Counted from the first letter of the stretch, positions 5,772 through 28,159 are shown. The stretch is DNA of 64,000 nucleotides from an uncultured Clostridia bacterium (GCA_934119935.1 CAKOSX010000001.1:268299-332298); one strand, 5' to 3'. Notes: generated by a model from the letters alone, not told the origin. Translations and numbers: made by a program.

Positions 5772-5905
5772 AAAAACATCCCTTTCAAAATTTTTACATG
5801 CAAACAATATGTTTTAAAAGTAGTATGCACAAAAATATGAAAAATATGTAATGAGTTTTATAAAATAATAAATGCTAACGATAAATTATTACAAAAAAAT
5901 TAAAT

Positions 5906-8375: not shown

Positions 8376-8414
8376 TATATATAAGTTAATGATAAAAGCA
8401 AAGGGGAATAACAG

Positions 8415-10964
8415 ATGAAGAGAGCAAAAAAAATGCTATCAAAGCTAGAAAAAATAATTGCAATAATAATAACAATTAATATTATATTTGTGAGTCAGGT
8501 ATCTGCTAAAACGTTTTTGCAAACTGCAGGAGGCGTCTTAATAGAGCCAGTTTTAAATTTTGTTATGTATATAGGTGATACGGTTGAAAACCAATTAAAT
8601 AAAACATTATATACTCAATATGGAAATGAAGACGCTGTTGTTGATTATCCAGTATCAGATGCTATGGAAGACATTGCTGATATAGGAGTGTTTGCTCTTA
8701 CAGTAAAAGAAAAACTATTAAAAATTGATTTGGAGTCATATAGTGATGCGGCGCTAATAGTTTATCTTGGTTTGGACCCAGGGTTATATTTTTCTTTGCA
8801 TTATGGAACAAAAATAGCAGAGGCACTAGGACATGAAACAAAAATTATGTTGCATCCGATAATAAATCTTGCTGATGATGCTTATGAAGAAGCTAAGTCT
8901 TATGTGCTGAAGGTAATAGATATGCTTAGAAAAGTCAGAAAGTCATTGGTAGAAAGACAAGAAGAATTAGCAGAGGGAAGAAAAGTTGTAACTGTTGAAC
9001 CGTTTGTTTTAAAAACAAACGCATTTGACAGTATTGACATTCCGAATGGAGAAATATATTCTCCATACGAAATTTTTTCGAATCAAATACCTTTATTAGA
9101 CGTTAATTTTATATCGCCACATGAGTATAAAAAAACGATTTGGAATATTGATATGCAAAACTTTAAAATTTATAGTGAGGAAGAAGATGTAGAATCTTCT
9201 GCAGCAATTTTGCAAAAAACAATTAGTAGTTGGTATGTAGCTTTGAAAAACATTGCAATTGTCGCTCTAATGTCTGTATTATTATATATTGGAATTAGAG
9301 TTGTGGTATCATCAAGTAATTCAGAAAAGGCTCGCTATAAAGAATTAATTTTTGACTGGTTAACTGCTTTGTGTCTTATATTTTTTATGCATTATATAAT
9401 GAGTTTTATGATTAATATGACAGAAAATATATCTACAATAATTAGTGAAGGTGCCAATACACTTATAAAAGTACCGATACAGGTTAATACAATTTTGGGA
9501 GTAGAAAATGAAAATTTTAATATAATAACAAACTTTTCCGGATATGTTAGATTGATGGCAAGTTTACTTGAAACTAATGGCTCAACTCTGACTGCATTAG
9601 AATATATTATTTTGTATGTTGTTCTTGTTGCATATACAGTAATGTTTACAGTTATATATATGAAAAGGGTTATTTATATGGCTTTTTTAACAGTTATATC
9701 TCCTATCACGGCGGTAACTTATCCGTTTAGAAAGCAAAGAGTAGGTGGGGGACAAGCCTTTGCACTATGGCTTAGGGAATATGTTGCTAATTTAATAATT
9801 CAACCTATACATCTACTTTTATATTCAATAACTATTGGAAGTGTTATGGAATTTGCTGTAGAGCACCCTATATATGCAATTGTGGCTCTGGTTTTCTTTA
9901 TACCAGCTGAAAAAATGATAATGGAATTCTTTGGATTGAAAAATTTGCAATATGCAGACACAGGAAAGACAATGAATTCAGAATCAAGAATATTAAGAAA
10001 AAATGCAATGATTGCTGGAAACGTTGCAGGAAATCTAAGTAGTGGATTAGCAAACGGTCTAAAGAAAATTAGAGTGATGACACTAGGGGAATCTTCAGAA
10101 AACAAGAAGATAAAACAACTAAATACTGAAAAAAATATTGAAAGTGCAACGGAAAATAATCAAAATGGAAAAAATTATTTTAGCCAATTGAGTCAAGAAA
10201 TATTAAACAGAAATTTAACTAATTCGAATAATGAAAAAGAAGCTGAAAATATTCAGAAATCCATATTTGAAAGTATAGAGAGAAGTGTTGAGAAAAGCGT
10301 AGACAGCAAACAAAATGATGATATAGAAACGAAAAGTAATAACAAAGAATATGAAAAGAATATAAGAAATACTATGAATAAAGATGAAGAAAAAGAAATT
10401 TATGATGCTATGTCTACGGAAAAAAATAATCAAAGTAATATAGTACAGGAACAAGATTTTAAGATAGAAACAAATATTAATTTTGATCAAGAAAAAGGAG
10501 AGGCGTATAGAGAATATTCAAAAAATGGAATAACAAATATAAATGAGTTTGAAGCTACATATGCATTAGAAGAAAAGGGAATGAGCAGAGAAGAGGCTAT
10601 TGCAACATATCAAATTGCAAAACAAACTGGTGATGTGAGAAATAATGAAAATATACAACAGGAATGGTTAAAAAAAATAAGCATCAATTTATCGCAGAAC
10701 CAGTATATTAAAGAAATGATGCAGGAACAAAGGAATCTTATAACAGAAAAATATTTGAAAAATGAAAGAGAATTAAAAGAAAAACATAATAAGAAAAATA
10801 ATTCTAATCAGGAGTATAGAAGATTAAAAGAGCAGGTAGAAGATTTAGAAAGAGAGATGAAAAACAACCAAAATAAAGAATTAGATGACGTTGAACAGAT
10901 TCCGATACGATTTGCAAAACAGATATTGAGTAACATTGAAGATTATTATAACAATTTAGAATAA
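8415..10964 (+). CDS. VirB6/TrbL-like polytopic membrane protein, paralog B (849 aa)
   Basis: Collinear with 5982..8375 through signal peptide, TM core and C-terminal coiled-coil tail (…IPIRFAKQIL…YYNNLE); AAGGGGA RBS. Confidence 0.45.
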   Translation: MKRAKKMLSKLEKIIAIIITINIIFVSQVSAKTFLQTAGGVLIEPVLNFVMYIGDTVENQLNKTLYTQYGNEDAVVDYPVSDAMEDIADIGVFALTVKEKLLKIDLESYSDAALIVYLGLDPGLYFSLHYGTKIAEALGHETKIMLHPIINLADDAYEEAKSYVLKVIDMLRKVRKSLVERQEELAEGRKVVTVEPFVLKTNAFDSIDIPNGEIYSPYEIFSNQIPLLDVNFISPHEYKKTIWNIDMQNFKIYSEEEDVESSAAILQKTISSWYVALKNIAIVALMSVLLYIGIRVVVSSSNSEKARYKELIFDWLTALCLIFFMHYIMSFMINMTENISTIISEGANTLIKVPIQVNTILGVENENFNIITNFSGYVRLMASLLETNGSTLTALEYIILYVVLVAYTVMFTVIYMKRVIYMAFLTVISPITAVTYPFRKQRVGGGQAFALWLREYVANLIIQPIHLLLYSITIGSVMEFAVEHPIYAIVALVFFIPAEKMIMEFFGLKNLQYADTGKTMNSESRILRKNAMIAGNVAGNLSSGLANGLKKIRVMTLGESSENKKIKQLNTEKNIESATENNQNGKNYFSQLSQEILNRNLTNSNNEKEAENIQKSIFESIERSVEKSVDSKQNDDIETKSNNKEYEKNIRNTMNKDEEKEIYDAMSTEKNNQSNIVQEQDFKIETNINFDQEKGEAYREYSKNGITNINEFEATYALEEKGMSREEAIATYQIAKQTGDVRNNENIQQEWLKKISINLSQNQYIKEMMQEQRNLITEKYLKNERELKEKHNKKNNSNQEYRRLKEQVEDLEREMKNNQNKELDDVEQIPIRFAKQILSNIEDYYNNLE

Positions 10965-10978
10965 AAGAGGAAAGAATT

Positions 10979-11866
10979 ATGTACAAAAATGATACAAATA
11001 AGTATAAAGTTTGGATGACTATTATTGTATTAATAGTAGTGGTATTTATTGTAATCAATTCAAAAATGAAAAATAATAAGCAATCGAATCTAGATAATAT
11101 TTTGGAAAATGCAGAAAAAGTAGAGAACATAGAACATACAGATAACGAAAGTAATGAGAATAATCTAAATCAGACAAAGAATAATGAAATTGATTTTAAC
11201 CAAAATGTAATAGAACGATTTATAGAATATTGTAATAATAATGAGATTAAAAAGGCATATAATTTATTGTCACAAGATTGTAAAAATGAATTATTCCCTT
11301 CAGTAGATGATTTTTATGATAAGTATTATAAGAAAAAATTTAGTACTAAAAAGAATTATACTATCATGTTGTGGAAAAACATGACCTATATGATTAATCT
11401 AAAAGAATGTAGTATTGAAACAGGAGTGTTATCAAGTGAAGTTATTAGAGATTACATAACATATACAAGAAATGGATTAAATATTGGTGGTTATATAGGT
11501 AGGGAAAAAGCAAATAGAACTATCAATGTGGAGAATATAAAAATCGATATTCTCTATAGAAATACATATATTGATTATGAAGAATATGCATTTTCTATAA
11601 AAAACAATAGTAAAGCAAGTATGATTTTTGATAGCAAAGAAAAAGCGAATACTCTCTATATAAAAGATCAGAAAGGGCTAAAGTATTATGCGTATATGTA
11701 TGAGCTGAACAAAAGTGAACTTATTTATGATCAAAATGAAGAGAGAAAAATAATTATTAAATACGAAAAAATGTATGATACAAATATATACACAAAGAAT
11801 ATTATCTTTGATGATGTAACAATAGGAGAAGAAAAAACTCAAATAATGATAGCATTAGGAGAATAG
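10979..11866 (+). CDS. Single-pass membrane-anchored hypothetical protein (N-terminal TM, Asn-rich linker, extracytoplasmic domain)
   Basis: ORF with GAGGAAAG RBS; N-terminal TM WMTIIVLIVVVFIVI. Confidence 0.5.
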   Translation: MYKNDTNKYKVWMTIIVLIVVVFIVINSKMKNNKQSNLDNILENAEKVENIEHTDNESNENNLNQTKNNEIDFNQNVIERFIEYCNNNEIKKAYNLLSQDCKNELFPSVDDFYDKYYKKKFSTKKNYTIMLWKNMTYMINLKECSIETGVLSSEVIRDYITYTRNGLNIGGYIGREKANRTINVENIKIDILYRNTYIDYEEYAFSIKNNSKASMIFDSKEKANTLYIKDQKGLKYYAYMYELNKSELIYDQNEERKIIIKYEKMYDTNIYTKNIIFDDVTIGEEKTQIMIALGE

Positions 11867-11867
11867 T

Positions 11868-14226
11868 ATGGAAGAAGAGGGAAAAGAAAAAAAGAACAGG
11901 AAAATAAAAAATGCAGGGAAAAAAATATTAAAAAATACCATTAAAACAATAATAAAGTTCATAAATTTCATAATTAATTTAATTATTAACTTTACTGTGC
12001 CAACATTAATAATAATTGCTGTTCTTATAGTTATTTCATCTATAAAATATGTAATAGATACTCTGGATGGTTCTCGAAATGAAAGTGAGCCACGGGAATG
12101 TAGGACATGTTGTCTCTGAAGAGGTCAGTTCTAAAGTTGTTGTTTCATCTATTGTTAAAACTGATAACGGTTATGGATATGATGTGGACTTAGATGAAAA
12201 AGTAGAGGCTATAAAAAAGGATCTGAAAGAAAACGATGCTGATGATACATTAGATAGATATATAAAAGAAAAAAATCAAAATAAGTATTTAAAGAAGTTT
12301 TTGCAGGCTGAAATAAAAACAAAGTTTCCAGACTTAAGAAACAAAGAGAAAATTGGACAAGCGTTAAAAGAAAATGAACTACAGGGATCAATACAAATAC
12401 ATAGAAAAAATCAAAATGGAAAAGATGAAATTTTAACATATATAGACGGTAAAACATTTAGAGAGTATATAAATTCTAATGATAAAAGAGCTATAGAACA
12501 TTTTTCTCTTAATAGTGATGGTAATTTACTAATTTCTAGCTGGACGAAGAAAACTCTAAAAGATGGAAGTGAAGAGTATTTCCTAAGTGAAGAAATTATC
12601 GATTATAGAGCTCTAACAAAAAGGTATGACATGCCATTTGATTTTTTGTGGGCACTGACAGTAATGGGAAATGATGAGGATTTGTCTTATGAGGTGGCAA
12701 AATTAACGGATGATACAAAGATAGTATTAACAATATATGAAAATGTTGTAAAAACTACAACAGTAAGAAAAACAGAAAATCAGGAAACAGGGAAAACAGA
12801 AGTAACGACCGAAAAATATGAAGAATGTGAAAATCACTTATATATGTCAAGTGCTGTAACATGGGTTGCTGATGTTGAAAATGAATATGTTAACAAGGTT
12901 ATAGATCCTATTGTGAGCCAATATTCGTCAGGTATTAGTGAAGTCACAAAAACAGTTGAAAGAAACGAGTATGTGAAAGGAACTGAAAAAATAACAGAAA
13001 AAATTGACAAAAATTCAGAAAAAGAAAATTTCATTACATTGCTTCTAAAGCATGAAAATGCAACTAATAAGATTTTAACAGCAAGAGATTGGTTCTATGA
13101 AATGCTTGAATCAAGCAATGATACAGTAGATATGATTGATACTATAGATTACTTGCTAGATATAGTAGAGGGCAAAACTACTACTGGAAATATTATTGAA
13201 GAGGGCTCAAAACAAGATATAACGCAGAATCAATTGGTAGATGATATAATAGTTGATACCACAAAAGGAAATAACAATTTAGTTCTAAAAAAAGAACAAT
13301 TAGAAGAAATAATAAGAAAGACATATAAAGATACAGATGACAAGCAGAAAAACTTACTAGGAGCATTAAATTCTTTTTATAAGATTCAATCGGAAAGACA
13401 TGTTAATGCTGTATTTGCAATGGCTGTAGCAATACAGGAATCAAATGCGGGGACAAGTTGGAATTACATAGACAAAAGTACTCATAACTGGATGAGTGTT
13501 ATGGGGCAAAGTGGATATACAGATAAAAATGGCAATACGTGGAAAAAATATGAGAGCTTTTCCGAAGCAACAGAGGACTTTGGAAGATTAATAGAGACAA
13601 ATAATAGCTATTTTGCTGGAGGAAACATAACAGTAAAGCAAATATCTAAGGCATACTGCAGTCCTTCAGAGCCATGGAGTAACCACGTAATATTAAAGAT
13701 GAAAGACTTATATTCATCTATTGGAATTCACTTAGATGATTATATAGATAAGAAGGAAGAAGAAAATTCTAGTGAAGATGCTAATATAACAGCTACAACA
13801 TTTTTAGGAATAGCAAAGCAATGCCATGACTATATTAAAGACAATAATTTTTATTATGTACAAGGAAACAAAATCCCATATCCAAATGGAACAAGTTACA
13901 TTGATTGTAGTGCATATGTTACATGGGTTTTGTATGAATATGGATATACAGAATTTGCGGGGCACCAAAAAGACACTGCCTGGTTTATGGGAAGTGGCCC
14001 ATCAAAAATGGGGTGGACAATATTAAAACCATCTGAGGCAAAGGCTGGAGATCTTCTTGTAAAATCTGGACATATAGAAATATTTGCAGGCGATGGAGTT
14101 GGAACTTATTCAGCAGGTTCTACTAATTCCATAAGAAAAGACATAAGTTACAAAGGATGCAGTTTAAGCAAAATAATTTCAGATGGCGGATTTACTCGAG
14201 CTATTAGAGTAAAAGCACCAAATTAA
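11868..14226 (+). CDS. Membrane-anchored bifunctional peptidoglycan hydrolase (FlgJ-type glucosaminidase plus C-terminal NlpC/P60), CwlT/TcpG-like; read as one gene interrupted by a +1 frameshift (extra C at 12093)
   Basis: ORFs 11868..12119 (TM anchor) and 12067..14226 join in frame if the C at 12093 (CCACGGG) is deleted; glucosaminidase motif VNAVFAMAVAIQESNAGTSWNY; NlpC/P60 Cys/His (DCSAYVTWV…GHIEIF). Confidence 0.6.
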
Positions 14227-14242
14227 GAATGAAGGAAATGCG

Positions 14243-15490
14243 ATGAGTAAAAAGGTATTAATTATAGGACTGATTTTAATATTAATAATTAGTGGAACAG
14301 TCACTATTGTTTTAACGAGAAAGACAGATAATGAGAAAAATATGGATGTTGAGGAGCAAGTAGGAGACGTTGAAACAAAGTTTAAAAGAGAAAAAGTAAG
14401 CAATTCTACAGTATTTTATACTGTAGAAGATTGCATAAATTTTTACATAGATTTTGTCAAAGCAGAGGAGAAAGATAAGATTTTTGAACTGCTGGATGAA
14501 AAATATATTAATGAAAATAATATAAATCAAGAGAATGTACTAAAATATGTAGAAAAGCCGAAATATTCTTTTATAGCATTAGACATGTATGAAAGTGAGT
14601 TAAACAATGTGTGCAACTATATTGTGGAAGGTGTTGCGGATGATGGAATTTACAACACAAAAATGTATTTTAGAGTGGGATTAGATACTAATAATTTTTC
14701 ATTTAACATAATGCCTTTATCTGCAAAGAAGTATAACAACATAGATGAAATAGAAGAAAGTGAAAGTATAGCAGAAATTCCAAACAACGATGCCAATAGT
14801 TATCAGTATAATAGAATAAAAGAAAATGAAATAATAGAAAAAATTTTAAAATATTATTGCGACCTTACTGTAAATAATGTAAAAAAAGCATATGACATGT
14901 TAGAACAAGAATATAGGGAAAAACGATTTGATAAATATAGCAAATTTCAAGATTACATAAAAAAGAGAAGTGAAAATCTAAAACAAGCACGTGTTGCAGG
15001 ATATTCAGTAAAGGAAGAAGAAAATAAAAAAATATATACTGTAGTAGACCAAGACGGAAGGGTATATATATTTAAGCAAAAATCTATAATGAATTTCACT
15101 GTTCAGATGGATGACTATACATTAGAAACAGATGAATATAAAGAAAAATATATGAATTCTACTGTTGTAGATAAAATTAAACTAAATGTAAACAAATTTA
15201 TGAAGATGATTTCTAATTATGATTATGAGAGCGCATATGGGCTATTGAATGAAGCATATAAAAAGAATAATTTTAAAACTGAAAAATCATATGAAAAATT
15301 TATAGAACAGCATTTTTATAATTCAAACTCATATAGCATAGAAAAGATTGAGACAGATGCACAAGATTATATTATTACAATTACTGTTGCAGAAGATGCG
15401 AGTGCATCAGCAGCGAAAAAAACAAATAAGATTGCAATGAGACTAGGGGAGAATACAGAATTTGTAATGGCGGTAATATTAAATGAGTAA
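14243..15490 (+). CDS. Single-pass membrane-anchored hypothetical protein (415 aa)
   Basis: N-terminal TM LIIGLILILIISGTVTIVL then soluble domain; GAAGGAAATG RBS. Confidence 0.5.
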   Translation: MSKKVLIIGLILILIISGTVTIVLTRKTDNEKNMDVEEQVGDVETKFKREKVSNSTVFYTVEDCINFYIDFVKAEEKDKIFELLDEKYINENNINQENVLKYVEKPKYSFIALDMYESELNNVCNYIVEGVADDGIYNTKMYFRVGLDTNNFSFNIMPLSAKKYNNIDEIEESESIAEIPNNDANSYQYNRIKENEIIEKILKYYCDLTVNNVKKAYDMLEQEYREKRFDKYSKFQDYIKKRSENLKQARVAGYSVKEEENKKIYTVVDQDGRVYIFKQKSIMNFTVQMDDYTLETDEYKEKYMNSTVVDKIKLNVNKFMKMISNYDYESAYGLLNEAYKKNNFKTEKSYEKFIEQHFYNSNSYSIEKIETDAQDYIITITVAEDASASAAKKTNKIAMRLGENTEFVMAVILNE

Positions 15491-15555: not shown

Positions 15556-15945
15556 ATGATGAACATAAAAGAAAATATAAAGAAAATTATAACAGGAATC
15601 ACAGCTTTTTTTACAACAATTACAACAAAAGTGTTTGCCAAAACAAATACTGATATCCAAAAGGTATTAAATGTTCTAGATGATAGTTATAATATGAGAG
15701 GAGTTTCATTATATGGAATTGAACGACCATGGCAATATACAGTAAGCAATGGATTGTTGAAAATTTGTGAATTTATTGCTATTCCACTTATTTTAATAAT
15801 TGGAGCCATAATTTTTATACAAAGAAAGAAGAATATAAAATCTAAAAATTTAAAAAAAGCTATAATAATTATAAGTATTGTTTATGTTGTTGCTTTTATA
15901 GCTGCACTTATTATTCCAATAATTTATAACCAGATTTATTTCTAG
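15556..15945 (+). CDS. Small secreted/membrane protein: Sec signal peptide plus two C-terminal hydrophobic helices separated by a basic loop (VirB2/TrbC-pilin-like topology)
   Basis: AGGAGG RBS; paralog of 17855..18211 on the opposite strand. Confidence 0.55.
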   Translation: MMNIKENIKKIITGITAFFTTITTKVFAKTNTDIQKVLNVLDDSYNMRGVSLYGIERPWQYTVSNGLLKICEFIAIPLILIIGAIIFIQRKKNIKSKNLKKAIIIISIVYVVAFIAALIIPIIYNQIYF

Positions 15946-16082
15946 ACGCATTGCTTAAATAAGTTTAGTTATTAAAATATGAAGATTAGCTAGTGTAAAT
16001 AAATATTGTAGATGAAATTTGTAAAAACATTATTAGTTTAGTAAAACATATGAAATATTACAAGTGAATATATGGAGGAAAA

Positions 16083-17171
16083 ATGTTAAAGGAAATTTAT
16101 AAATTAGGGGAATTAACAATAAACAATCGCATTAAAGATGAAGAAAGAATTTTACATCCATTAAGAGATTTATTCTGGGAATGTACATTATCATGCAATG
16201 CAAAGTGCAAACACTGTGGAAGTAGTGCAGAAAAAAGAAGATATGACGGAGAATTAACAACAGATGAAATAAAATCAGCTTTTAAACAAATAGCTGACAA
16301 TATGGATGCTAGTAAAATTTTAATTAATGTTACAGGTGGAGAACCATTAGTAAGACAAGATTTGTGTGAGGTGATGGAATATGCTTCAAAAGAATTGGGT
16401 TTTCATTGGGGAATGACAACGAATGGAATTCTACTTAACGAAAAGAATATAGAAAAATTAAAAAATGCAAATATGGAAAGTATTTCGGTAAGCATAGATG
16501 GATTGCAAGAAACTCATGATGAGTTTAGAGGAGTACCAGGCTCATATAATTTAATAATGAATAATATTAAGAAACTTAAAGAAGCGGGTTTTGTAAAACA
16601 TTTGCAGGTTACAACAGTTTTTCATAAGAAAAATATTAACCAACTGCAGGAATTATATGATATTATGAAAAATTTAGGATTAGATTCTTGGAGACTAGTT
16701 TCAATGGATCCAATTGGAAGAGCAAATGAAAATTCTGAACTTTTACTCGATGGAAAAGAATTAAAAGAATTGCTGGATTTTATAAAATCAAAAAATAAGA
16801 AGCATTGTTTGCAATTATCTTATGGTTGCCCTGGATTTTTAGGATTAGATTACGAGAAGGAAGTAAGAAAACAGTATTTTTATTGCAGGACTGGAATAAG
16901 TGTTGCGAGCATACTTTATAACGGAGATTTGTTTGTATGTCCTAATGTCCCAAGAGTTTCTAGATTAATACAAGGAAATATAAGAATAGACAATTTTAAA
17001 AAAGTTTGGGATAATAAATACACGGAATTTAGAGATAAAAATAGAATGGCATGCGAAGAATGCAATAAGTGTGAAAATTGGGATTATTGTCTTGGAGGAG
17101 CATTACATACTTGGAACTTTGAAGAAAAGTGTCAAAATAAGTGTCCATACAAAATGATGGAAAATTTATAA
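16083..17171 (+). CDS. Radical SAM enzyme with C-terminal SPASM/twitch Cys-rich domain (peptide or protein-modifying maturase type)
   Basis: CNAKCKHC = CxxxCxxC radical SAM cluster motif; C-terminal cysteines (CPGF…CRTG…CPNVP…CEECNKCENWDYC…CQNKCPY); GGAGG RBS. Confidence 0.75.
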   Translation: MLKEIYKLGELTINNRIKDEERILHPLRDLFWECTLSCNAKCKHCGSSAEKRRYDGELTTDEIKSAFKQIADNMDASKILINVTGGEPLVRQDLCEVMEYASKELGFHWGMTTNGILLNEKNIEKLKNANMESISVSIDGLQETHDEFRGVPGSYNLIMNNIKKLKEAGFVKHLQVTTVFHKKNINQLQELYDIMKNLGLDSWRLVSMDPIGRANENSELLLDGKELKELLDFIKSKNKKHCLQLSYGCPGFLGLDYEKEVRKQYFYCRTGISVASILYNGDLFVCPNVPRVSRLIQGNIRIDNFKKVWDNKYTEFRDKNRMACEECNKCENWDYCLGGALHTWNFEEKCQNKCPYKMMENL

Positions 17172-17204
17172 AAACTTTTTTGAAAAATTAAATAGGAGAA
17201 AGAG

Positions 17205-17231
17205 GCATAGTATAAAAGCACTATGCTTTTT
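17205..17231 (+). terminator. Rho-independent terminator after the radical SAM gene
   Basis: GCATAGT-ataaaag-ACTATGC hairpin followed by TTTTT. Confidence 0.6.
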
Positions 17232-17282
17232 CTAGTAGACAAAAAAATAAAGGAGATGCTTCCATTTCCTTTAATTTTTTTA

Positions 17283-17492
17283 TTATTGAATTCCATATTT
17301 TTCTCTGAATTTTGCTGCTCTTCCACCTGTTGTTTCTCTTTTTAAGTTACCTGTCCAGAATGGATGGCATTTTGAGCAAACATCAACTTTGATATCTTTC
17401 TTTGTTGATCCAGCTTTTATAACATTACCACATGCACATGTGATTGTTGTTTCTGCATAATTTGGATGTATTCCTTCTTTCATTGTATTCAC
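17283..17492 (-). CDS. rpmE: 50S ribosomal protein L31
   Basis: MKEGIHPNY…CxC…CSKCHPFWTG signature of zinc-ribbon L31. Confidence 0.9.
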   Translation of the reverse strand: MNTMKEGIHPNYAETTITCACGNVIKAGSTKKDIKVDVCSKCHPFWTGNLKRETTGGRAAKFREKYGIQ

Positions 17493-17577
17493 CTCTCCTT
17501 TTTTTAATAAAAACTGCTAAATACTATAATAACATAAATGAATTATATTTTCAAGTATTAAATTATTATTTTTAAAT

Positions 17578-17739
17578 TTATATTGTATTTTCTGTATCTT
17601 GCTTGTGTTCTTCAATATATTCAATAGAACTTTGAACTTCTTCTTTTAAAGAATATCTTCTTACTATTTTTGATACAACATTAAATAAACAAGCAATAAT
17701 AAGAATTGCCAACAATAATTTTTTCCATATTTTTGCCAT
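17578..17739 (-). CDS. Unannotated small ORF, 53 aa single-TM peptide (MAKIWKKLLLAILIIACLFNVVSKIVRRYSLKEEVQSSIEYIEEHKQDTENTI)
   Basis: GGAGAAAAAATT-ATG RBS; below the 60-aa cutoff of the ORF track; hydrophobic N-terminus and charged C-terminus. Confidence 0.4.
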   Translation of the reverse strand: MAKIWKKLLLAILIIACLFNVVSKIVRRYSLKEEVQSSIEYIEEHKQDTENTI

Positions 17740-17854
17740 AATTTTTTCTCCTACATCAAAAACTACAATAATATTATACTATATTTTTAACTTTTGTCAA
17801 CTGGCAAACTAGCTTAATTACTTAAAAGCTAAGAGTGTTAAAGAGTTGAAAATA

Positions 17855-18211
17855 TTATATTGTAGGATTAAACAAAAAAATTGCAATTCTAATTATGCTG
17901 GCAATAAGAAATGTAATAATAGCTATAAGAAATACTATTTTAAAACTCTTAATACTTTTATTTTTATGTTTTTTCACAAGAATTATAATTCCTAATATTA
18001 AAATTATAGGTACTATAAATATTTGCCACAAACGAAGAATATTTAAAACAATTGACTTATAGTTTGGTGTTTGTGATGTACGTGGTGGACCATATAATTC
18101 TTGAAGAATAGGCATGGAATCAGTAGCAACAGCTAATACTTTAGTTGATACTGTTGCAAAAAAAGCTCCAATTCCAGCTGTGATTTTTTTGAACATTTCT
18201 TTTATTTTCAT
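17855..18211 (-). CDS. Small secreted/membrane protein, inverted paralog of 15556..15945 (signal peptide plus two hydrophobic helices)
   Basis: Shared signal peptide (KKITAGIGAFFATVSTKVLA vs KKIITGITAFFTTITTKVFA) and shared C-terminal helix-basic loop-helix layout. Confidence 0.55.
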   Translation of the reverse strand: MKIKEMFKKITAGIGAFFATVSTKVLAVATDSMPILQELYGPPRTSQTPNYKSIVLNILRLWQIFIVPIILILGIIILVKKHKNKSIKSFKIVFLIAIITFLIASIIRIAIFLFNPTI

Positions 18212-18348
18212 AAGTTCCTCCTAAAATCTAAGTGTTAAAATCATTATATATTCACCGAGATTTAATTGTCAATATCCTTGCTATTTTTTCTTTTTTATAG
18301 TAAAATAAATTGAGAAAAAAGTTGAAAAATGGAGAATATTAGAAGGTT

Positions 18349-23891: not shown

Positions 23892-24293
23892 ATGAAAAAA
23901 ATACTAGCAATCATATCTATCTTGTTTTTCTTAATGGGGTGTACATCTGTGTATGCTGAAAGCCAATTGAACACAGTTCCACAGGATGCAACAGGAAAAT
24001 TAATAGAGATAAAAGACAAAGAATTGAAAACAATGGAAGAGTATAAAGAAGCCTATGGCTCAGATGCATATGGTATTACAGCATATTTATTAAATAAAGT
24101 TAGAATTTATAGTATACCTTTTGGATTTGTATCAATTATAATAGCAGCAATATATCAATACATAATAGGATTAAAAAAATTGGACGTAAGAGACAAAGGT
24201 TTTGCATTGATGATTGCAAGTGTTACTATAGTAGTAATATGTCAAGTATTGCCACTTGTTTTTGCAATTGTAGTAAAAGGTTGGAGGGGTTAA
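23892..24293 (+). CDS. Small lipoprotein with two C-terminal hydrophobic helices
   Basis: Lipobox LMGC after a signal peptide; topology resembles the small proteins at 15556 and 17855. Confidence 0.5.
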   Translation: MKKILAIISILFFLMGCTSVYAESQLNTVPQDATGKLIEIKDKELKTMEEYKEAYGSDAYGITAYLLNKVRIYSIPFGFVSIIIAAIYQYIIGLKKLDVRDKGFALMIASVTIVVICQVLPLVFAIVVKGWRG

Positions 24294-24297
24294 ACTA

Positions 24298-27039
24298 ATG
24301 AAGGTTTTATTCGCAGTAAATAATGAAAAGATTTCAGAGGCTATAATAAAAAAGTACCAAACAATGTACAAGGAAATAATTTCATGGAAAAACGTCTATT
24401 TTTTCAATGCGATAATAAAAGAGTTACAAAAAGATAAATCTTATGACAGAATTGTTATAGGCGAAGATTTGGAACCTTATGCAAACAATAATTACGAAGT
24501 TATAGATAATTTATTGTTTGATAAGTTAGACAGCATAAGTGATGAGGCTTCTAACAGTAGAGATGGAGATATTCCAATAATATTAATAGCAACAGATAGA
24601 AGAGAAAGGGGAAATTCTCTTCTTGTAAAGTTATTTGGAATTGGAATTTATAATGTATTACTTGGACAAGATAGAAAAATTGATAATGTTTGTCAATTAA
24701 TCTATCAACCTCGTACGAAAAAAGAGGCAAAAGCTTATTACAGAATTGATTCTGATGATGTAAACTATCAGGAAATTGATCCTGAGAGTGTAAGTGAAGT
24801 GGAAATCCAAAACATACTAACTCATTATAAAAAATTAGGAAAGAATGAAGATAGATATGTTGAAAGCTTTGAAGAAATTGCCACACAGTATACTGATGCT
24901 CAATTAAAGCTTATTACCAGAGCTCTGCCTTTAAATGTAAGAGCTGTTTTAGAGGAAAAATGCCCAAAATATCAACAAGTAATGATTGGTAGTGTGAAAA
25001 ATCAGGTGGCAGCACAGAAAAAATCTGCTAAGCAATTTACGAGCAAAAATATACAGAGTAAAAATATTAACAAAATTGAGTTGATTGATAGAGAATTACA
25101 AAAATCAAAATTAACGAAGCCAGTTGTTATTCCTTCAACAATCAATATGCAAAATGTAAAAAAAGCATATACAATGCCTAGAAGTGAAGAACAAGATATT
25201 CTGCAAAATATTCAACCAAATACAATGCAGACTCCACCAGAAAGAATGATACCAGATTTTTCTCAGGATATTATTCAAAATGATCAAACCAGTATTCAAC
25301 CAAACATTCAGCAAAATATTCAGCCAAGCTTTCAACCTGATTTTTCAAACAATTTCGTACAAAATAATAATGCTTCGAATTTTGAAAATAACGCTCCATT
25401 CTTGCCAAATGTGGAACCTGAAAAAGATGAAATACAAGAACAGAATGCTGAACCAGTAAAGAAGGGCAGAGGTAGACCTAAAAAAGAAAAAACGCCAGAA
25501 GAAATTGCCGCTGAGGAGGCAAAAGAGAAAAAGGGCAGAGGCAGACCAAGAAAAAATGTTGAACAACCTTCAAATGAAAATACTAATGTTTCTCAGGATG
25601 TTAATTTATTTGAGATATATAACCAAAACAACGCAGAAAATAATGTAAACGATGTAAATAATGTAATATTGCCAGGTTTTGAAGAAGAGACAAAAGATGC
25701 TAATGGTACAGAAAATCAGAATTTACAATTCAACTCAGTAGCACAAGAGGATGACACAAACGTTGATTTCTTTGGCAATAAATTAAATCGTGATTTTAAT
25801 CCAGATTTTTTCGGAAATGAAGCACAGGTTGATAGGCTCCCAGGTACAGAAAAACAAAAAAAGGAAGAACCAAAAAAGATTGAACCGATTGTACCTAATA
25901 AAGAAGTTCCAAAAGTTGTAGAAAATATAAAAAATGATAATATAAAAATTGAAGAAAAACCAGTCGAAATAAAGAATAATGATGTTAAAGAAAATATAAA
26001 TGCAAATCAAAATATTATTCCAAATATTGAAGATGTTAGTATCAGTATGCCTGGTTTTGAAGATGTAAATAACGGACAAAACAATAATCAAATAGAACCA
26101 GTAAGAGAAAATGTAAATTACGGAAATTCAGAATTATCAAATTTAATAACAGGTGATAAGAAGATTGTGGCATTTGTTGGAACATCTAAAAATGGAACAT
26201 CTTTCTTAGTAAATAACTTGGCAGCGCAAATGTCTAACAAGGGAATAAAAACTGCAATTTTGGATCTTACTAAAAATAAAAATGCATATTATATATATAC
26301 TTTAAATGAAGATTCACTAAGAGAAAAGGCATTTAATTGCATAGAAAAGCTAAGAAGAGGTGTCGCAGACGGAATTCAAGTAAATAAGAATTTATCTGTT
26401 TATACAACATTACCTGGAGAAAATTTGAGTTTAGATGATTATAAAAATGTATTAGAAACACTTGTAAGAAATTATTCATTAGTATTATTAGATTGTGATT
26501 TTGATACAGATTCAAACTACTTTGCTAGTGCACAAGAATTATATTTAGTACAAACATATGACATATTAACAATACAACCATTAACAGCATTTTTAAATGA
26601 ATTAAAGTATAAAAATATTTTAGATCAAAATAAGTTAAGAATTGTAATAAACAAAACATTGAAATTAAGAAAGCTTACAGATAAAATGATTATTGCCGGA
26701 ATTTCTTGTTACAATGATCCTGCATCAACATATATTAACACATTATTTGATAGAGATCATGTAAGATATACAACAATTCCATTTGAAGATCAAACTTATG
26801 CAAGGTACCTAGAAAGACTTGTAGACTGCGAGATATCATTAAATGGATACTCAAAGATGTTTTTGGATGCATTAGAAAGATTAGGAAATATGGTTTATCC
26901 ACTAATTGCAAATAATCCAAATAAGTATCAGCCAGGAAAGAAAAATTTTAATGACTATAGTAAAAATAACAAAAATGTAAATACAGCTTTTAATAGCAAC
27001 ATGAATGCTACTTTAAATAAAATGAGAAATAATTTTTAA
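24298..27039 (+). CDS. TadZ/CpaE-like protein: N-terminal receiver-like domain, Q/N/P-rich low-complexity linker with two AT-hook motifs (KKGRGRPKK, KKGRGRPRK), C-terminal ParA/MinD-fold with degenerate Walker A
   Basis: Domain order read from sequence; Walker-A-position sequence VAFVGTSKNGTSF lacks the GKT lysine; AT-hook GRGRP cores at aa about 385 and 410. Confidence 0.45.
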   Translation: MKVLFAVNNEKISEAIIKKYQTMYKEIISWKNVYFFNAIIKELQKDKSYDRIVIGEDLEPYANNNYEVIDNLLFDKLDSISDEASNSRDGDIPIILIATDRRERGNSLLVKLFGIGIYNVLLGQDRKIDNVCQLIYQPRTKKEAKAYYRIDSDDVNYQEIDPESVSEVEIQNILTHYKKLGKNEDRYVESFEEIATQYTDAQLKLITRALPLNVRAVLEEKCPKYQQVMIGSVKNQVAAQKKSAKQFTSKNIQSKNINKIELIDRELQKSKLTKPVVIPSTINMQNVKKAYTMPRSEEQDILQNIQPNTMQTPPERMIPDFSQDIIQNDQTSIQPNIQQNIQPSFQPDFSNNFVQNNNASNFENNAPFLPNVEPEKDEIQEQNAEPVKKGRGRPKKEKTPEEIAAEEAKEKKGRGRPRKNVEQPSNENTNVSQDVNLFEIYNQNNAENNVNDVNNVILPGFEEETKDANGTENQNLQFNSVAQEDDTNVDFFGNKLNRDFNPDFFGNEAQVDRLPGTEKQKKEEPKKIEPIVPNKEVPKVVENIKNDNIKIEEKPVEIKNNDVKENINANQNIIPNIEDVSISMPGFEDVNNGQNNNQIEPVRENVNYGNSELSNLITGDKKIVAFVGTSKNGTSFLVNNLAAQMSNKGIKTAILDLTKNKNAYYIYTLNEDSLREKAFNCIEKLRRGVADGIQVNKNLSVYTTLPGENLSLDDYKNVLETLVRNYSLVLLDCDFDTDSNYFASAQELYLVQTYDILTIQPLTAFLNELKYKNILDQNKLRIVINKTLKLRKLTDKMIIAGISCYNDPASTYINTLFDRDHVRYTTIPFEDQTYARYLERLVDCEISLNGYSKMFLDALERLGNMVYPLIANNPNKYQPGKKNFNDYSKNNKNVNTAFNSNMNATLNKMRNNF

Positions 27040-27067: not shown

Positions 27068-28159
27068 ATGATAACAGTAATAATAGTTATAGTGCTTTCA
27101 TCAATAATTATAGGATTAATGTTGTACAACATGTCGATTCATAAAAAAATAGAAGCATTTAAAAACATAAATCAGCAAATCACAAGCTTGAATGTATTAC
27201 AAGATTTCATGGATACAATAAGTGAGACATCAAGTGTAGATGAAAAGCTAAAAAGAATAAATGAAATATTAATTGAAAAGTATGGGATAAAGTATTCAAC
27301 TATTGTTGTATATACTGGAGCTGAATTTTCAATAAAAGCCTCAAATGTAGCAGAAAAACATTGGGATGTTTTAAAAAATTTACAATCAGAACCTGTTTTC
27401 AAAGACAGTATAGATACTGGAATTCCAAAATATATCACTGTTGAGAAAGAAGGAGAAAAATTACCATACCAAAAGATGGAATTTGGAAGAGCAAAGTCTG
27501 CAATGTTTTTCCCAATATATATTGATAATGTATACATTGGATATTGGATAATAGAGGGAAGCACACCACATGAATTTGATGATGTTGATACTACTATTCT
27601 AGAAGTTGTAAAAAATAACATAGTAGCTGTTCTTAAGACTGTTGAAAATCAATCAACTATAGAAAAAATTGTAAAAGACGATAAATATTCAGAATTAAAA
27701 ACTGCAGAGTATTTGTATACAGAAGGTAAAAAAGTTATAGATAGATATACGACATCAACAGTATGTTTATTTAAAATAATAAACCTTGTAGATATAAATG
27801 AAAAAATAAGCAGAAAAACAGGAGATAATACGATAACTCAAATCTGCAGAACAATAAAGCAAGACTTGGCACCTGAATATTTATTTGTAAGATATATGGG
27901 ACCAAAATTTGCAATTGTTTTTTCAGGGGTTGAATTACAAGCCGTTGAAGAATTTATGAAAGATGTAAAAGCAAAAGCAGAAGCTCTTAAAATAGAACCT
28001 GCAGAGGACTATAGTGGAGATTGCAAAGAGGTATCACCAAAATTAAATATTGCTCTAGCGAGGTATTATAAAGGTACTGCATTAATCGGAGTTACAAAAA
28101 AACTAGAAGAATACCTAGATACAACAGATCCTTTAGAGAGTAATATAAATTATTTATAG
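27068..28159 (+). CDS. Membrane-anchored protein with degenerate GGDEF-like domain (RYMGPKF in place of RYGGEEF), probably non-catalytic
   Basis: N-terminal TM; GGDEF-like fold signature with active-site substitutions. Confidence 0.4.
   Translation: MITVIIVIVLSSIIIGLMLYNMSIHKKIEAFKNINQQITSLNVLQDFMDTISETSSVDEKLKRINEILIEKYGIKYSTIVVYTGAEFSIKASNVAEKHWDVLKNLQSEPVFKDSIDTGIPKYITVEKEGEKLPYQKMEFGRAKSAMFFPIYIDNVYIGYWIIEGSTPHEFDDVDTTILEVVKNNIVAVLKTVENQSTIEKIVKDDKYSELKTAEYLYTEGKKVIDRYTTSTVCLFKIINLVDINEKISRKTGDNTITQICRTIKQDLAPEYLFVRYMGPKFAIVFSGVELQAVEEFMKDVKAKAEALKIEPAEDYSGDCKEVSPKLNIALARYYKGTALIGVTKKLEEYLDTTDPLESNINYL

What the first reader, a model, noticed from the sequence alone, without database searches (positions are those of the whole stretch)
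15556..18211. Inverted paralogous small signal-peptide/two-helix proteins bracketing an orphan radical SAM/SPASM enzyme and rpmE
15556..15945 (+) and 17855..18211 (-) share a signal peptide (KKIITGITAFFTTITTKVFA / KKITAGIGAFFATVSTKVLA) and a C-terminal helix, basic loop, helix layout typical of VirB2/TrbC-type pilins. They face each other across a radical SAM/SPASM maturase-type enzyme, rpmE and an unannotated 53-aa TM peptide. A third protein of similar topology (lipoprotein 23892..24293) lies after mutS. The radical SAM/SPASM enzyme has no obvious Cys-rich precursor peptide beside it, so its substrate is unknown. The small secreted proteins or the 53-aa peptide are candidate substrates.
Basis: partly seen in the sequence, partly recalled or inferred. 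Interest (0 to 1): 0.55.

Follow-up and report, generated by a model that had tools for sequence, protein, structure and literature searches.

The report
Radical SAM enzyme with Tyr-Gly membrane-protein partners
A radical SAM/SPASM enzyme in an uncultured gut Clostridia genome is almost always encoded beside small exported two-helix membrane proteins that share one invariant Tyr-Gly-x-Pro motif, and the same motif marks its partners in Bacteroidales, so this is most likely an uncharacterised enzyme-substrate system, not a pilin locus.

Summary
Genes 15556-15945 (+) and 17855-18211 (-) are paralogues (35% identity, E 2e-10). They converge across a radical SAM/SPASM gene, rpmE and a 53-aa single-helix membrane peptide.

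The linkage is real and conserved. In 53 of 59 species-level Clostridia relatives, one to three members of this small-protein family lie within 450 nt of the enzyme gene on the same strand, while the other neighbours change. The family shares a signal-peptide-like N-terminus, a nearly invariant L-Y-G-[V/P/I]-P-x-P motif, and a two-helix membrane hairpin with a basic loop. It has about 440 clusters and no Pfam or NCBIfam model.

The enzyme is closest to TIGR04133, an uncharacterised "radical SAM with lipoprotein" family, but scores below its cutoff. True TIGR04133 enzymes in Bacteroidales sit next to non-homologous exported partners that carry the same Y-[G/A]-x-P motif just after the lipoprotein-signal cysteine.

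Best reading: the enzyme modifies the Tyr-Gly motif before export, in the manner of anSME, the anaerobic sulfatase-maturing enzyme. The chemistry is unknown.

The VirB2/TrbC pilin idea, the 53-aa peptide and the protein at 23892-24293 are not supported. This is a new variant of a known kind and a good experimental target.

The parts
15556..15945 (+). smallA: 129-aa member of the small Tyr-Gly two-helix membrane-protein family. Residues 1-28 form a signal-peptide-like N-terminus ending K-V-F-A. A short external segment follows, then helix 1 (about residues 71-89), a basic loop (QRKKNIKSKNLKK) and helix 2 (about residues 102-124).
   Evidence: ORF. Paralogue of smallB. 93 bits against the family HMM. 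Homologues lie directly upstream of the enzyme gene in L001 and L080-L090.
15709..15729 (+). Tyr-Gly motif of smallA: L52-Y53-G54-I-E-R-P58, the proposed modification site.
   Evidence: Read from the sequence. The column is invariant or nearly invariant in alignments A2 and A3.
16083..17171 (+). Radical SAM/SPASM enzyme, 362 aa. The CX3CX2C cluster motif is at residues 38-45. Seven conserved SPASM-region cysteines are at 249, 268, 286, 327, 330, 336 and 354. There is no N-terminal peptide-recognition (RRE) domain.
   Evidence: Pfam Radical_SAM plus SPASM. Best NCBIfam hit is TIGR04133 at 325.6 bits, below the 425 cutoff; next best is 183 bits. The AlphaFold2 model and Foldseek give SuiB, anSME and SkfB as top matches.
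17205..17273 (.). Two terminator-like hairpins, one on each strand, between the convergent enzyme gene and rpmE. They mark the end of the smallA-enzyme transcription unit.
   Evidence: pattern match only.
17855..18211 (-). smallB: 118-aa family member, convergent to the enzyme gene. Signal-peptide-like residues 1-27 end K-V-L-A. Helix 1 spans about residues 59-79, the basic loop is KKHKNKSIKSFK, and helix 2 spans about residues 92-114.
   Evidence: ORF. Paralogy. 85 bits against the family HMM. The AlphaFold2 model shows helices 3-30, 51-81 and 87-114 with a disordered motif region, at low confidence (pLDDT 68).
18083..18097 (-). Tyr-Gly motif of smallB: L39-Y40-G41-P42-P43, the proposed modification site.
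   Evidence: Reverse complement of 18083-18097 reads tta tat ggt cca cca. Y40 and G41 are invariant or nearly invariant columns.
18243..18272 (-). Promoter-like site matching the sigma-70 consensus at 12 of 12 positions (TTGACA, 18 nt spacer, TATAAT), upstream of smallB.
   Evidence: consensus match only; the total number of sites is not above the shuffled expectation.

Best explanation
The region holds a two-component protein-maturation module: one cytoplasmic radical SAM/SPASM enzyme and its co-encoded substrates. The enzyme belongs to a sister clade of TIGR04133. The substrates are small exported membrane proteins with a signal-peptide-like N-terminus, a short external segment carrying the near-invariant motif L-Y-G-[V/P/I]-P-x-P, and a two-helix hairpin with a basic cytoplasmic loop.

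Proposed mechanism (inferred, not shown):
- The enzyme binds the unfolded Tyr-Gly-x-Pro segment before or during Sec/YidC insertion, as anSME (the anaerobic sulfatase-maturing enzyme) does with the sulfatase Cys/Ser-x-Pro-x-Arg motif.
- It cleaves SAM to a 5'-deoxyadenosyl radical and abstracts a hydrogen within the motif.
- With help from the two auxiliary SPASM clusters it installs a modification. The most plausible candidates are an intramotif Tyr cross-link (cyclophane-like, Tyr to residue +2 or +3), or a C-alpha or C-beta change such as epimerisation or oxidation.
- The modified segment ends up on the outer face of the membrane.

In this genus the module has been rearranged. One substrate gene (smallA) lies upstream of the enzyme gene. 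A second (smallB) became convergent, with rpmE and a 53-aa peptide gene interposed.

Shown: paralogy, conserved adjacency, the motif, enzyme class and fold. Inferred: the enzyme-substrate relation, timing before export, and the chemistry.
For: 1. Adjacency. In 59 species-representative Clostridia loci found through the enzyme, a family member lies within 450 nt on the same strand in 53. The usual gap is 9-25 nt and there are often 2-3 tandem copies, while the remaining neighbours differ.
2. Remaining loci. Four of the other six still carry a Tyr-Gly-motif protein beside or near the enzyme gene, of a different architecture or further away: L042, L051, L058 and L059.
3. Reverse test. Five small proteins looked up independently all lie beside a Radical_SAM+SPASM gene, in two unrelated contexts: mutS/miaB/rpmE and SMC/MntP.
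4. Motif conservation. Y and G are the only conserved residues outside the membrane and signal-peptide parts, although overall identity is only about 29%. The motif is present in 77 of 79 locus-derived members, and in 170 of 176 members retrieved from the protein databases by script; three of the six misses also carry it by eye. The background YG frequency is 0.0027 per residue.
5. Motif behaviour. It occurs in 1-4 copies per protein and can sit at the C-terminus instead (L042, L045, L053). This is how an enzyme recognition site behaves.
6. Cross-phylum partners. True TIGR04133 enzymes in Bacteroidales (468-503 bits, 33-38% identical to this one) have non-homologous exported partners carrying the same motif.
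   - TIGR04134 lipoproteins have [E/L]-Y-[G/A]-[T/S/V]-P within 25 aa of the lipoprotein-signal cysteine in 24 of 25 cases, against 0.015 expected by chance.
   - TonB_C-type and ACP-like fusions have RYGVPRP or MYGVQRP in 7 of 7 full-length cases.
7. Enzyme class. TIGR04133 is by far the best family match (326 bits against 183 for the next). Sequence and fold neighbours with solved structures are mainly peptide- or protein-modifying SPASM enzymes: CteB, SkfB, SuiB, anSME and PqqE. anSME matches over the full length without an RRE domain.
8. Evolutionary regime. The enzyme is 70-80% identical across species whose partners are only 25-45% identical. One MAG (metagenome-assembled genome) carries two modules, each orthologous as a pair to modules elsewhere.
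Against: - No biochemical evidence exists for this family or for TIGR04133. I found no paper on either.
- The motif lies in the part of the protein predicted to face outward, so the cytoplasmic, oxygen-sensitive enzyme must act before export. That step is assumed, not shown.
- There is no RRE domain and no recognisable leader, so how the enzyme recognises its substrate is unknown.
- In this window the pairing is looser than usual: a 137-nt gap to smallA, and smallB on the opposite strand with its own promoter-like site.
- L052 and L056 showed no partner.
- Conservation of the motif within each partner family could partly reflect shared descent.
- The rank correlation between enzyme and partner divergence (0.65) is confounded by species phylogeny.
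- The two-module MAG could be a binning artefact.
Confidence: 0.62

Rival explanations
1. The small proteins are VirB2/TrbC-type type IV secretion pilins, belonging with the neighbouring membrane-protein and cell-wall-hydrolase island. The radical SAM gene is an unrelated neighbour.
For: - The topology fits: a signal peptide plus a two-helix hairpin with a short basic loop.
- The 797-aa protein at 5982-8375 has a weak PF18895 T4SS_pilin hit (E 1.7e-4, below the cutoff).
- A glucosaminidase-domain protein lies at 12067-14226.
Against: - None of 30 family members hits PF18895 or PF04956, even at E up to 1. Only scattered membrane-protein noise appears.
- No VirB4- or VirD4-like ATPase is nearby.
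- The island 5982-15490 is absent in relatives that keep smallA, the enzyme and smallB.
- In more than 50 species the family sits beside the enzyme in otherwise unrelated contexts.
Confidence: 0.04
2. The small proteins are not substrates. They are membrane partners of the enzyme (an anchor, regulator or export/immunity component), and its true substrate is something else, such as a lipid, cofactor or cell-envelope precursor.
For: - The hairpin has conserved features of its own: the I-P-I-x-L-I-I-G stretch and the KKSK loop.
- Some SPASM-like radical SAM enzymes act on non-peptide substrates. AhbD/NirJ family models and BlsE, GDGT synthase and MoaA structures all appear among the weaker hits.
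- The enzyme has no RRE domain.
Against: - In Bacteroidales, and in L042 and L058, the partners have no such hairpin. What they share is the Y-[G/A]-x-P motif.
- Motif copy number and position vary.
- Tandem multiplication of partner genes per enzyme gene is typical of substrates.
- No biosynthetic pathway genes are co-conserved.
Confidence: 0.15
3. It is a classical modified-peptide (RiPP) or bacteriocin locus. The N-terminus acts as a leader, the modified Tyr-Gly segment is cleaved off and released as a diffusible peptide, and the hairpin is a disposable carrier or immunity part.
For: - Multiple tandem, fast-evolving precursor-like genes sit beside one conserved maturase.
- Repeated core motifs occur in some members.
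- The nearest structurally solved relatives are RiPP maturases.
Against: - No protease, peptidase-containing ABC exporter or immunity gene is co-conserved.
- The hairpin is the longest and best-retained part of the protein.
- In Bacteroidales the motif sits on lipoproteins with folded domains (TIGR04134, TonB_C), which look like mature proteins rather than precursors.
Confidence: 0.12
4. The adjacency has no shared function. The enzyme is a housekeeping enzyme, and the small genes are simply frequent neighbours in a compact genome.
For: - The enzyme is highly conserved (70-80% identity).
- In this window it sits among housekeeping genes: rpmE, miaB and mutS.
Against: - Adjacency in 53 of 59 species with changing flanks would not arise by chance for a family with 1-3 copies in a genome of about 1.5 Mb. 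The expectation is about 0.002 per locus by my estimate.
- The motif is shared across phyla.
Confidence: 0.03

Closest known systems
TIGR04133 (rSAM_w_lipo) with TIGR04134 (radical SAM-associated putative lipoprotein). These are paired NCBIfam 'hypothetical equivalog' families from Bacteroidota, defined by computation only.
   Same: - TIGR04133 is by far the best family hit for the enzyme (325.6 bits against 183 for the next).
- Both share the DLFWECTL signature, the CX3CX2C motif and the same seven SPASM-region cysteines.
- Both are encoded beside exported or membrane-anchored proteins that carry Y-[G/A]-x-P close to the mature N-terminus.
   Different: - The score is below the curated cutoff of 425, and identity is only 33-38%.
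- The host is Clostridia, not Bacteroidota.
- The partner is a non-homologous signal-peptide plus two-helix membrane protein with no TIGR04134 hit.
- The TIGR04133/TIGR04134 pair has no known function either.
anSME, the anaerobic sulfatase-maturing enzyme (for example anSMEcpe, PDB 4K36-4K39)
   Same: - A radical SAM plus SPASM enzyme of about 360-370 aa without an RRE domain.
- Full-length fold match, TM-score 0.64 normalised either way.
- From established knowledge: anSME modifies a short Pro-containing motif (C/S-x-P-x-R) near the N-terminus of signal-peptide-bearing proteins in the cytoplasm before export. This is the model proposed here.
   Different: - Sequence identity is only 17-19%, and anSME models are not among the 25 best NCBIfam hits.
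- The motif has no Cys or Ser to oxidise to formylglycine.
- The partners are not sulfatases.
SPASM-type RiPP maturases: CteB (SCIFF thioether), SkfB, SuiB (streptide Lys-Trp), PqqE and MftC
   Same: - The closest relatives with solved structures, by sequence and by fold.
- NCBIfam MftC, PqqE and SCIFF models score 88-145 bits, far below their cutoffs.
- One maturase sits beside several fast-evolving substrate genes.
   Different: - There is no RRE/PqqD-like domain. The radical SAM core starts at about residue 30, after a single helix.
- There is no short Cys-rich precursor.
- The substrates are membrane proteins of about 110 aa exported by a signal peptide.
- There is no dedicated protease or exporter.
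Triceptide (three-residue cyclophane) maturases, which cross-link an aromatic residue to the residue two positions on (own knowledge of the literature, not tested here)
   Same: The conserved Tyr-Gly-[Val/Pro/Ile] fits the aromatic-X-X pattern, is sometimes repeated, and is paired with a radical SAM/SPASM enzyme.
   Different: No family-model match was seen. The third residue here is aliphatic or Pro rather than the usual polar residues. The chemistry is entirely untested.
VirB2/TrbC and PF18895 type IV secretion pilins
   Same: A signal peptide followed by a two-helix hairpin with a short basic loop, and a similar size.
   Different: No profile match in 30 members, no linkage to secretion genes, and a conserved Tyr-Gly motif plus enzyme linkage that pilins lack.

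Membership tests
TIGR04133 radical SAM/SPASM (rSAM_w_lipo) | Whole-protein score at or above the curated NCBIfam cutoff (425 bits) | tested here: not met
   325.6 bits, E 3e-97. The Bacteroidales homologues score 468-503 bits.
TIGR04133 radical SAM/SPASM (rSAM_w_lipo) | CX3CX2C radical SAM motif plus the C-terminal SPASM cysteine set | tested here: met
   C38/C42/C45 and C249, C268, C286, C327, C330, C336, C354 are invariant within the Clostridia clade alignment. They align with the same cysteines in the intact Bacteroidales sequences; one Bacteroidales copy is masked in this region.
TIGR04133 radical SAM/SPASM (rSAM_w_lipo) | Encoded next to a TIGR04134 lipoprotein | tested here: not met
   smallA, smallB and the protein at 23892-24293 give no TIGR04134 hit at E up to 0.01. 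The partners are a different family that shares only the Y-[G/A]-x-P motif.
VirB2/TrbC or PF18895 type IV secretion pilin | Match to the Pfam profile (PF04956 or PF18895) | tested here: not met
   No such hit for smallA or smallB at E up to 0.01. Neither family is among those listed for 30 family members at E up to 1.
VirB2/TrbC or PF18895 type IV secretion pilin | Signal peptide plus two hydrophobic helices separated by a short basic loop | tested here: met
   Sequence features and the AlphaFold2 helices 3-30, 51-81 and 87-114 (low confidence). No signal-peptide predictor was available.
VirB2/TrbC or PF18895 type IV secretion pilin | Encoded within a type IV secretion or conjugation gene cluster (VirB4-type ATPase and so on) | tested here: not met
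   No such genes in the window neighbourhood, nor among the called genes of related loci. The family follows the radical SAM gene.
RiPP radical SAM/SPASM maturase systems (SCIFF/CteB, sactipeptide, ranthipeptide, PqqE, MftC) | Score above the family-specific NCBIfam cutoff | tested here: not met
   SCIFF 88 against 425; PapB 97 against 340; StsB 94 against 625; PqqE 106 against 381; MftC 145 against 265.
RiPP radical SAM/SPASM maturase systems (SCIFF/CteB, sactipeptide, ranthipeptide, PqqE, MftC) | N-terminal RRE/PqqD-like peptide-recognition domain, or a separate PqqD-like partner | tested here: not met
   Pfam finds only Radical_SAM, Fer4_12 and SPASM, starting at residue 34. The model shows a single helix (residues 2-24) before the core. 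No PqqD-like gene is adjacent.
RiPP radical SAM/SPASM maturase systems (SCIFF/CteB, sactipeptide, ranthipeptide, PqqE, MftC) | Adjacent short precursor peptide carrying the modified residues | tested here: inconclusive
   No short Cys-rich ORF is present. Adjacent proteins of about 110 aa with a conserved motif are present and may play the precursor role.
anSME (anaerobic sulfatase-maturing enzyme) | Radical SAM plus SPASM architecture without an RRE domain, with an anSME-like fold | tested here: met
   Foldseek against 4K39_B: E 2.8e-11, TM-score 0.64 on both normalisations over 362 columns. The query model has mean pLDDT 72.7.
anSME (anaerobic sulfatase-maturing enzyme) | Sulfatase substrate with a C/S-x-P/A-x-R motif, and an anSME family-model match | tested here: not met
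   No anSME model is among the best 25 NCBIfam hits. No sulfatase is in the neighbourhood. The partner motif lacks Cys and Ser.
Triceptide (three-residue cyclophane) systems | C-C cross-link between an aromatic residue and the residue two positions downstream | not testable with these tools
   Only the sequence pattern Y-G-[V/P/I] is compatible. This needs mass spectrometry or NMR.

The most novel reading that the evidence does not exclude
The TIGR04133-like radical SAM/SPASM enzymes of gut Clostridia and Bacteroidales form one cross-phylum maturation system. It installs a so far unknown radical modification on a Tyr-[Gly/Ala]-x-Pro motif of exported proteins before they leave the cytoplasm. 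Those proteins include two-helix membrane proteins, lipoproteins and TonB-C-domain proteins. This would be a second anSME-like case of pre-export radical maturation. It would have new chemistry and a new substrate class, including the first small integral membrane proteins known as radical SAM substrates.
Probability: 0.5. Interest if true: 0.8.

Novelty: new variant of a known kind. Interest (0 to 1): 0.62.

Why it matters
Radical SAM/SPASM enzymes are a main source of new post-translational chemistry, but most characterised ones act on short, Cys-rich peptides recognised through an RRE domain.

This case is different in several ways:
- The enzyme is compact and lacks an RRE domain.
- It is conserved in dozens of uncultured gut Clostridia species and related to an unexplained Bacteroidota family.
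- Its likely targets are exported membrane and surface proteins marked by a single Tyr-Gly-x-Pro motif.

If confirmed, it would assign a function to two 'hypothetical' NCBIfam families (TIGR04133 and TIGR04134) and to a family of about 440 small-protein clusters with no annotation. It would define a recognisable substrate motif for genome mining. It would also point to a modified cell-surface component common in human and animal gut anaerobes. The prediction can be tested directly with a two-gene co-expression and mass spectrometry.

Tried and rejected
- **Pilin membership.** Pfam scans of smallA, smallB and 30 family members gave no PF18895 or PF04956 hit, only scattered membrane-protein noise. 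I did not run a fold search on the small-protein model because its confidence is too low to be meaningful (pLDDT 68, pTM 0.32).
- **Protein at 23892-24293 as a third member.** BLASTP was non-significant and the family HMM gave 9 bits, with the alignment placing its 'AYG' on the motif. Its family is far more conserved (85-88% identity, 4316 hits). A 41%-identical homologue in L045 lacks the AYG at that position. Rejected.
- **The 53-aa peptide as substrate.** It has no Tyr-Gly motif. tblastn finds it only in L001, and an ORF of matching size and position is called in L080-L083 and L088-L090, always beside rpmE. Rejected.
- **Hidden tiny precursor ORFs in the two intergenic gaps.** None found.
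- **Classification as SCIFF, sactipeptide, PqqE, MftC, AhbD or NirJ.** All are far below their cutoffs.
- **Literature.** Searches for TIGR04133/TIGR04134, for radical SAM with lipoprotein or Bacteroidetes, and for signal peptide, tyrosine or crosslink found nothing specific in the held library. Subscription-only papers are not covered.
- **PHROG scan of the neighbouring island proteins.** No hits.
- **Word-indexed protein search with the family profile.** It found only 33 relatives. The exhaustive search was needed to see the family's size.


Full report
**What is in the window**

The window has about 30% G+C. Its closest relatives are uncultured gut Clostridia MAGs (metagenome-assembled genomes). 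The enzyme is 96% identical to CAKOZB010000030, and a related complete chromosome is 1.55 Mb. NCBI names close homologues of two small proteins from this window (smallB and the protein at 23892-24293) 'hypothetical protein, Clostridium sp. CAG:245'.

| Gene | Coordinates | Strand | Length |
|---|---|---|---|
| smallA | 15556-15945 | + | 129 aa |
| radical SAM/SPASM enzyme | 16083-17171 | + | 362 aa |
| rpmE | 17283-17492 | - | 69 aa |
| single-helix membrane peptide | 17578-17739 | - | 53 aa |
| smallB | 17855-18211 | - | 118 aa |

These are followed by miaB and mutS.

- smallA and smallB are true paralogues: 35% identity over the full length, E 2e-10.
- The protein at 23892-24293 has a similar layout but no detectable homology.
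- The two intergenic gaps hold no candidate precursor ORF.
- A pair of terminator-like hairpins separates the enzyme gene from rpmE. smallB and the 53-aa gene each have a perfect consensus promoter-like site. These are pattern matches only.

**The enzyme**

- Pfam gives Radical_SAM plus SPASM.
- The best NCBIfam hit by a wide margin is TIGR04133, 'rSAM_w_lipo', at 325.6 bits. This is below the 425 cutoff. The next best is AhbD at 183 bits. SCIFF, PapB, StsB, PqqE and MftC are all far below their cutoffs.
- The CX3CX2C motif and seven C-terminal cysteines are invariant in the Clostridia clade and align with the same cysteines in Bacteroidales TIGR04133 proteins.
- There is no room for an RRE peptide-recognition domain. 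The radical SAM core starts at about residue 30, after one helix.
- By sequence, the nearest solved structures are CteB, SkfB, BlsE, GDGT-MAS, MoaA and PqqE.
- By fold (model pLDDT 72.7), the nearest are SuiB, anSME (full length, TM-score 0.64), SkfB, BlsE and PqqE.
- More than 2,000 database proteins match at E 1e-20 or better. The best 120 are 73-94% identical, so the enzyme is strongly conserved in a large uncultured clade.

**Linkage to the small proteins**

A scan of one genome per GTDB species returned 59 Clostridia loci (63-96% identity to the enzyme) and 20 Bacteroidales loci (33-38%). I built an HMM iteratively from smallA and smallB.

- The HMM found a family member within 450 nt of the enzyme gene, on the same strand, in 53 of the 59 Clostridia loci. 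The usual gap is 9-25 nt, and there are often two or three tandem copies or one on each side.
- Four of the remaining six loci still carry a Tyr-Gly-motif protein beside or near the enzyme gene, of a different architecture or further away. L042 has a lipoprotein with 'AVYGVPAD', L058 a soluble-domain protein with 'ALYGVPSG', L051 a 312-aa polytopic protein, and L059 a truncated member. L052 and L056 showed none.
- The other neighbours differ between loci: HemK, ABC-F, amylase, pnp, SMC, MntP and others.
- The reverse test agrees. Five small proteins looked up by exact sequence all lie beside a Radical_SAM+SPASM gene, in two unrelated contexts.
- In the 64-kb window the HMM finds only smallA and smallB.
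- The layout seen in this window (smallA, enzyme, then convergent rpmE, peptide and smallB) is the genus-specific version. It is conserved in L001, L080-L083 and L088-L090.

**The small-protein family**

- An exhaustive profile search finds 440 clusters (at 50% identity) at E 1e-3 or better, and 141 at 1e-10 or better.
- None of the members returned by the word-indexed search carries a Pfam domain, and the only source names are 'hypothetical protein' and one evidently wrong label.
- Members are only about 29% identical on average, yet they share three parts:
  - a Lys-rich, signal-peptide-like N-terminus ending K-[V/I]-[F/Y]-A, which fits the -3/-1 rule for signal peptidase I (my inference);
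  - a short variable segment with the motif [L]-Y-[G much more often than A]-[V/P/I]-P-x-P;
  - a hairpin of two hydrophobic helices around a KKSK-type loop.
- Y40 and G41 (smallB numbering) are invariant or nearly invariant in both alignments. The other such columns are K24 in the signal region and G74 in helix 1.
- The motif is present in 77 of 79 non-redundant locus members. In 176 members retrieved from the protein databases, the script finds it in 170, and three of the six misses also carry it by eye. The background YG frequency is 0.0027 per residue.
- It occurs one to four times per protein and can sit at the C-terminus instead.
- By the positive-inside rule the motif would face outward (inference).
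- The AlphaFold2 model agrees on the helices but has low confidence.

**The same motif in another phylum**

- The Bacteroidales enzymes are true TIGR04133 members (468-503 bits), and their neighbours include true TIGR04134 'radical SAM-associated putative lipoproteins'.
- In 24 of 25 non-redundant TIGR04134-like neighbours, [E/L]-Y-[G/A]-[T/S/V]-P lies within 25 residues of the lipoprotein-signal cysteine, where 0.015 would be expected by chance. The one miss is an over-extended ORF call.
- In Prevotellaceae and Muribaculaceae loci the neighbours are different again. They have an N-terminal anchor plus a TonB_C domain or a weakly ACP-like domain. All seven full-length ones carry RYGVPRP-, MYGVQRP- or KYGAIMP-type motifs.
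- So the only feature shared by all partner architectures of this enzyme superfamily is export or membrane anchoring plus Y-[G/A]-x-P.

**Interpretation**

Several features are the usual signature of a maturase and its substrates:
- one conserved enzyme paired with fast-evolving, tandemly multiplied neighbours;
- a single conserved short motif that varies in copy number and position;
- the same motif on non-homologous partners in another phylum;
- peptide- and protein-modifying SPASM enzymes as the nearest structural relatives.

The partners carry export signals and the enzyme lacks an RRE domain. The best mechanistic analogy is therefore anSME, which modifies a short Pro-containing motif of signal-peptide-bearing sulfatases in the cytoplasm before export (established knowledge). 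QhpD acting on QhpC is another precedent for radical maturation before export (own knowledge).

The chemistry cannot be read from the sequence. The motif has no conserved Cys, Ser, Thr or Lys. That leaves a Tyr-centred cross-link to residue +2 or +3 (triceptide-like), or an epimerisation or oxidation at the Gly or aliphatic position, as the leading candidates (inference).

One MAG (UMGS1852) carries two modules whose enzymes are 75% identical and whose partners are 34% identical. Each is orthologous as a pair to modules in other MAGs, which suggests the pair duplicates as a unit. Binning error cannot be excluded.

**What is not supported**

- **VirB2/TrbC pilins.** This rests on topology alone. 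There are no profile hits and no secretion genes. The adjacent island (5982-15490) that might suggest a surface apparatus is missing in relatives that keep the module.
- **The 53-aa peptide.** It is conserved only within this genus, beside rpmE, and lacks the motif.
- **The protein at 23892-24293.** It belongs to a much more conserved family that travels with the 913-aa protein downstream. Its 'AYG' is not conserved in a distant homologue.

**Novelty and verdict**

The enzyme is a sub-threshold sister of a named but functionally blank NCBIfam family. Its Clostridia partner family has no model, and no source gives it a credible name. I found no paper on either, or on the shared motif, within the limits of the held library.

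I rate it a new variant of a known kind: a radical SAM/SPASM protein-maturation module. My confidence in the enzyme-substrate reading is about 0.6, and the chemistry is unknown. It is a well-defined experimental target but is unproven biochemically. Interest 0.62.

Noticed in passing
window 5982-15490: Five-gene island between VanW (5070-5807) and smallA. It holds two paralogous polytopic membrane proteins of about 800 aa (42% identical), a 295-aa protein, a 719-aa glucosaminidase-domain protein and a 415-aa protein. One membrane protein has a weak PF18895 T4SS_pilin hit; there are no PHROG hits. The island is absent in relatives L080 and L088, where VanW abuts the smallA homologue. In L001, where the enzyme is 96% identical, the large membrane protein is only 37-39% identical. 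It looks like a hypervariable surface or envelope cassette.
   Followed up: partly
window 17578-17739 (-): A 53-aa single-helix membrane peptide gene with its own 12-of-12 consensus promoter-like site (17800-17773). tblastn finds it in L001 (81% identity), and an ORF of matching size and position (52 aa) is called between rpmE and smallB in L080-L083 and L088-L090. It has no Tyr-Gly motif. Function unknown.
   Followed up: partly
window 23892-24293 and 24298-27039: A small protein with a lipoprotein-signal-like N-terminus and two helices, 85-88% conserved in more than 100 relatives. It is followed by a 913-aa protein with no Pfam hit. The pair also occurs together in L045. A GGDEF-like protein follows at 27068-28159.
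   Followed up: partly
L003 and L044 (both from MAG UMGS1852); L008 and L059 (both from MAG BRZ_BI__bin48): Two separate enzyme loci come from the same MAG. For L003/L044 I checked both modules: the enzymes are 75% identical and the partners 34%, and each is orthologous as a pair to modules in other genomes. The L008/L059 pair was not analysed. This is either module duplication or a binning mixture.
   Followed up: partly
L013:5935-6576; L028:2076-2377: L013 encodes a 213-aa head-to-tail fusion of two small-protein units. L028 has fragments of a second radical SAM gene upstream of an extra small-protein gene. Both point to ongoing duplication and decay of the module.
   Followed up: no
L042:7094-7492 and L058:5682-6020: In these two Clostridia loci the protein beside the enzyme gene is not the two-helix type. 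L042 has a lipoprotein and L058 a soluble-domain protein, carrying 'AVYGVPAD' and 'ALYGVPSG' near the N-terminus. This bridges to the Bacteroidales lipoprotein partners.
   Followed up: partly
L076-L079 (Prevotellaceae and Muribaculaceae): TIGR04133 neighbours here share a conserved N-terminus (…GKK[S/T]L[T/A]AVGAVVAAGLTPG…) and a conserved '…TYSFDELYAMQ…' segment. They end in a TonB_C domain, a weakly ACP-like domain, or no recognisable domain, and there are often two or three per locus.
   Followed up: partly
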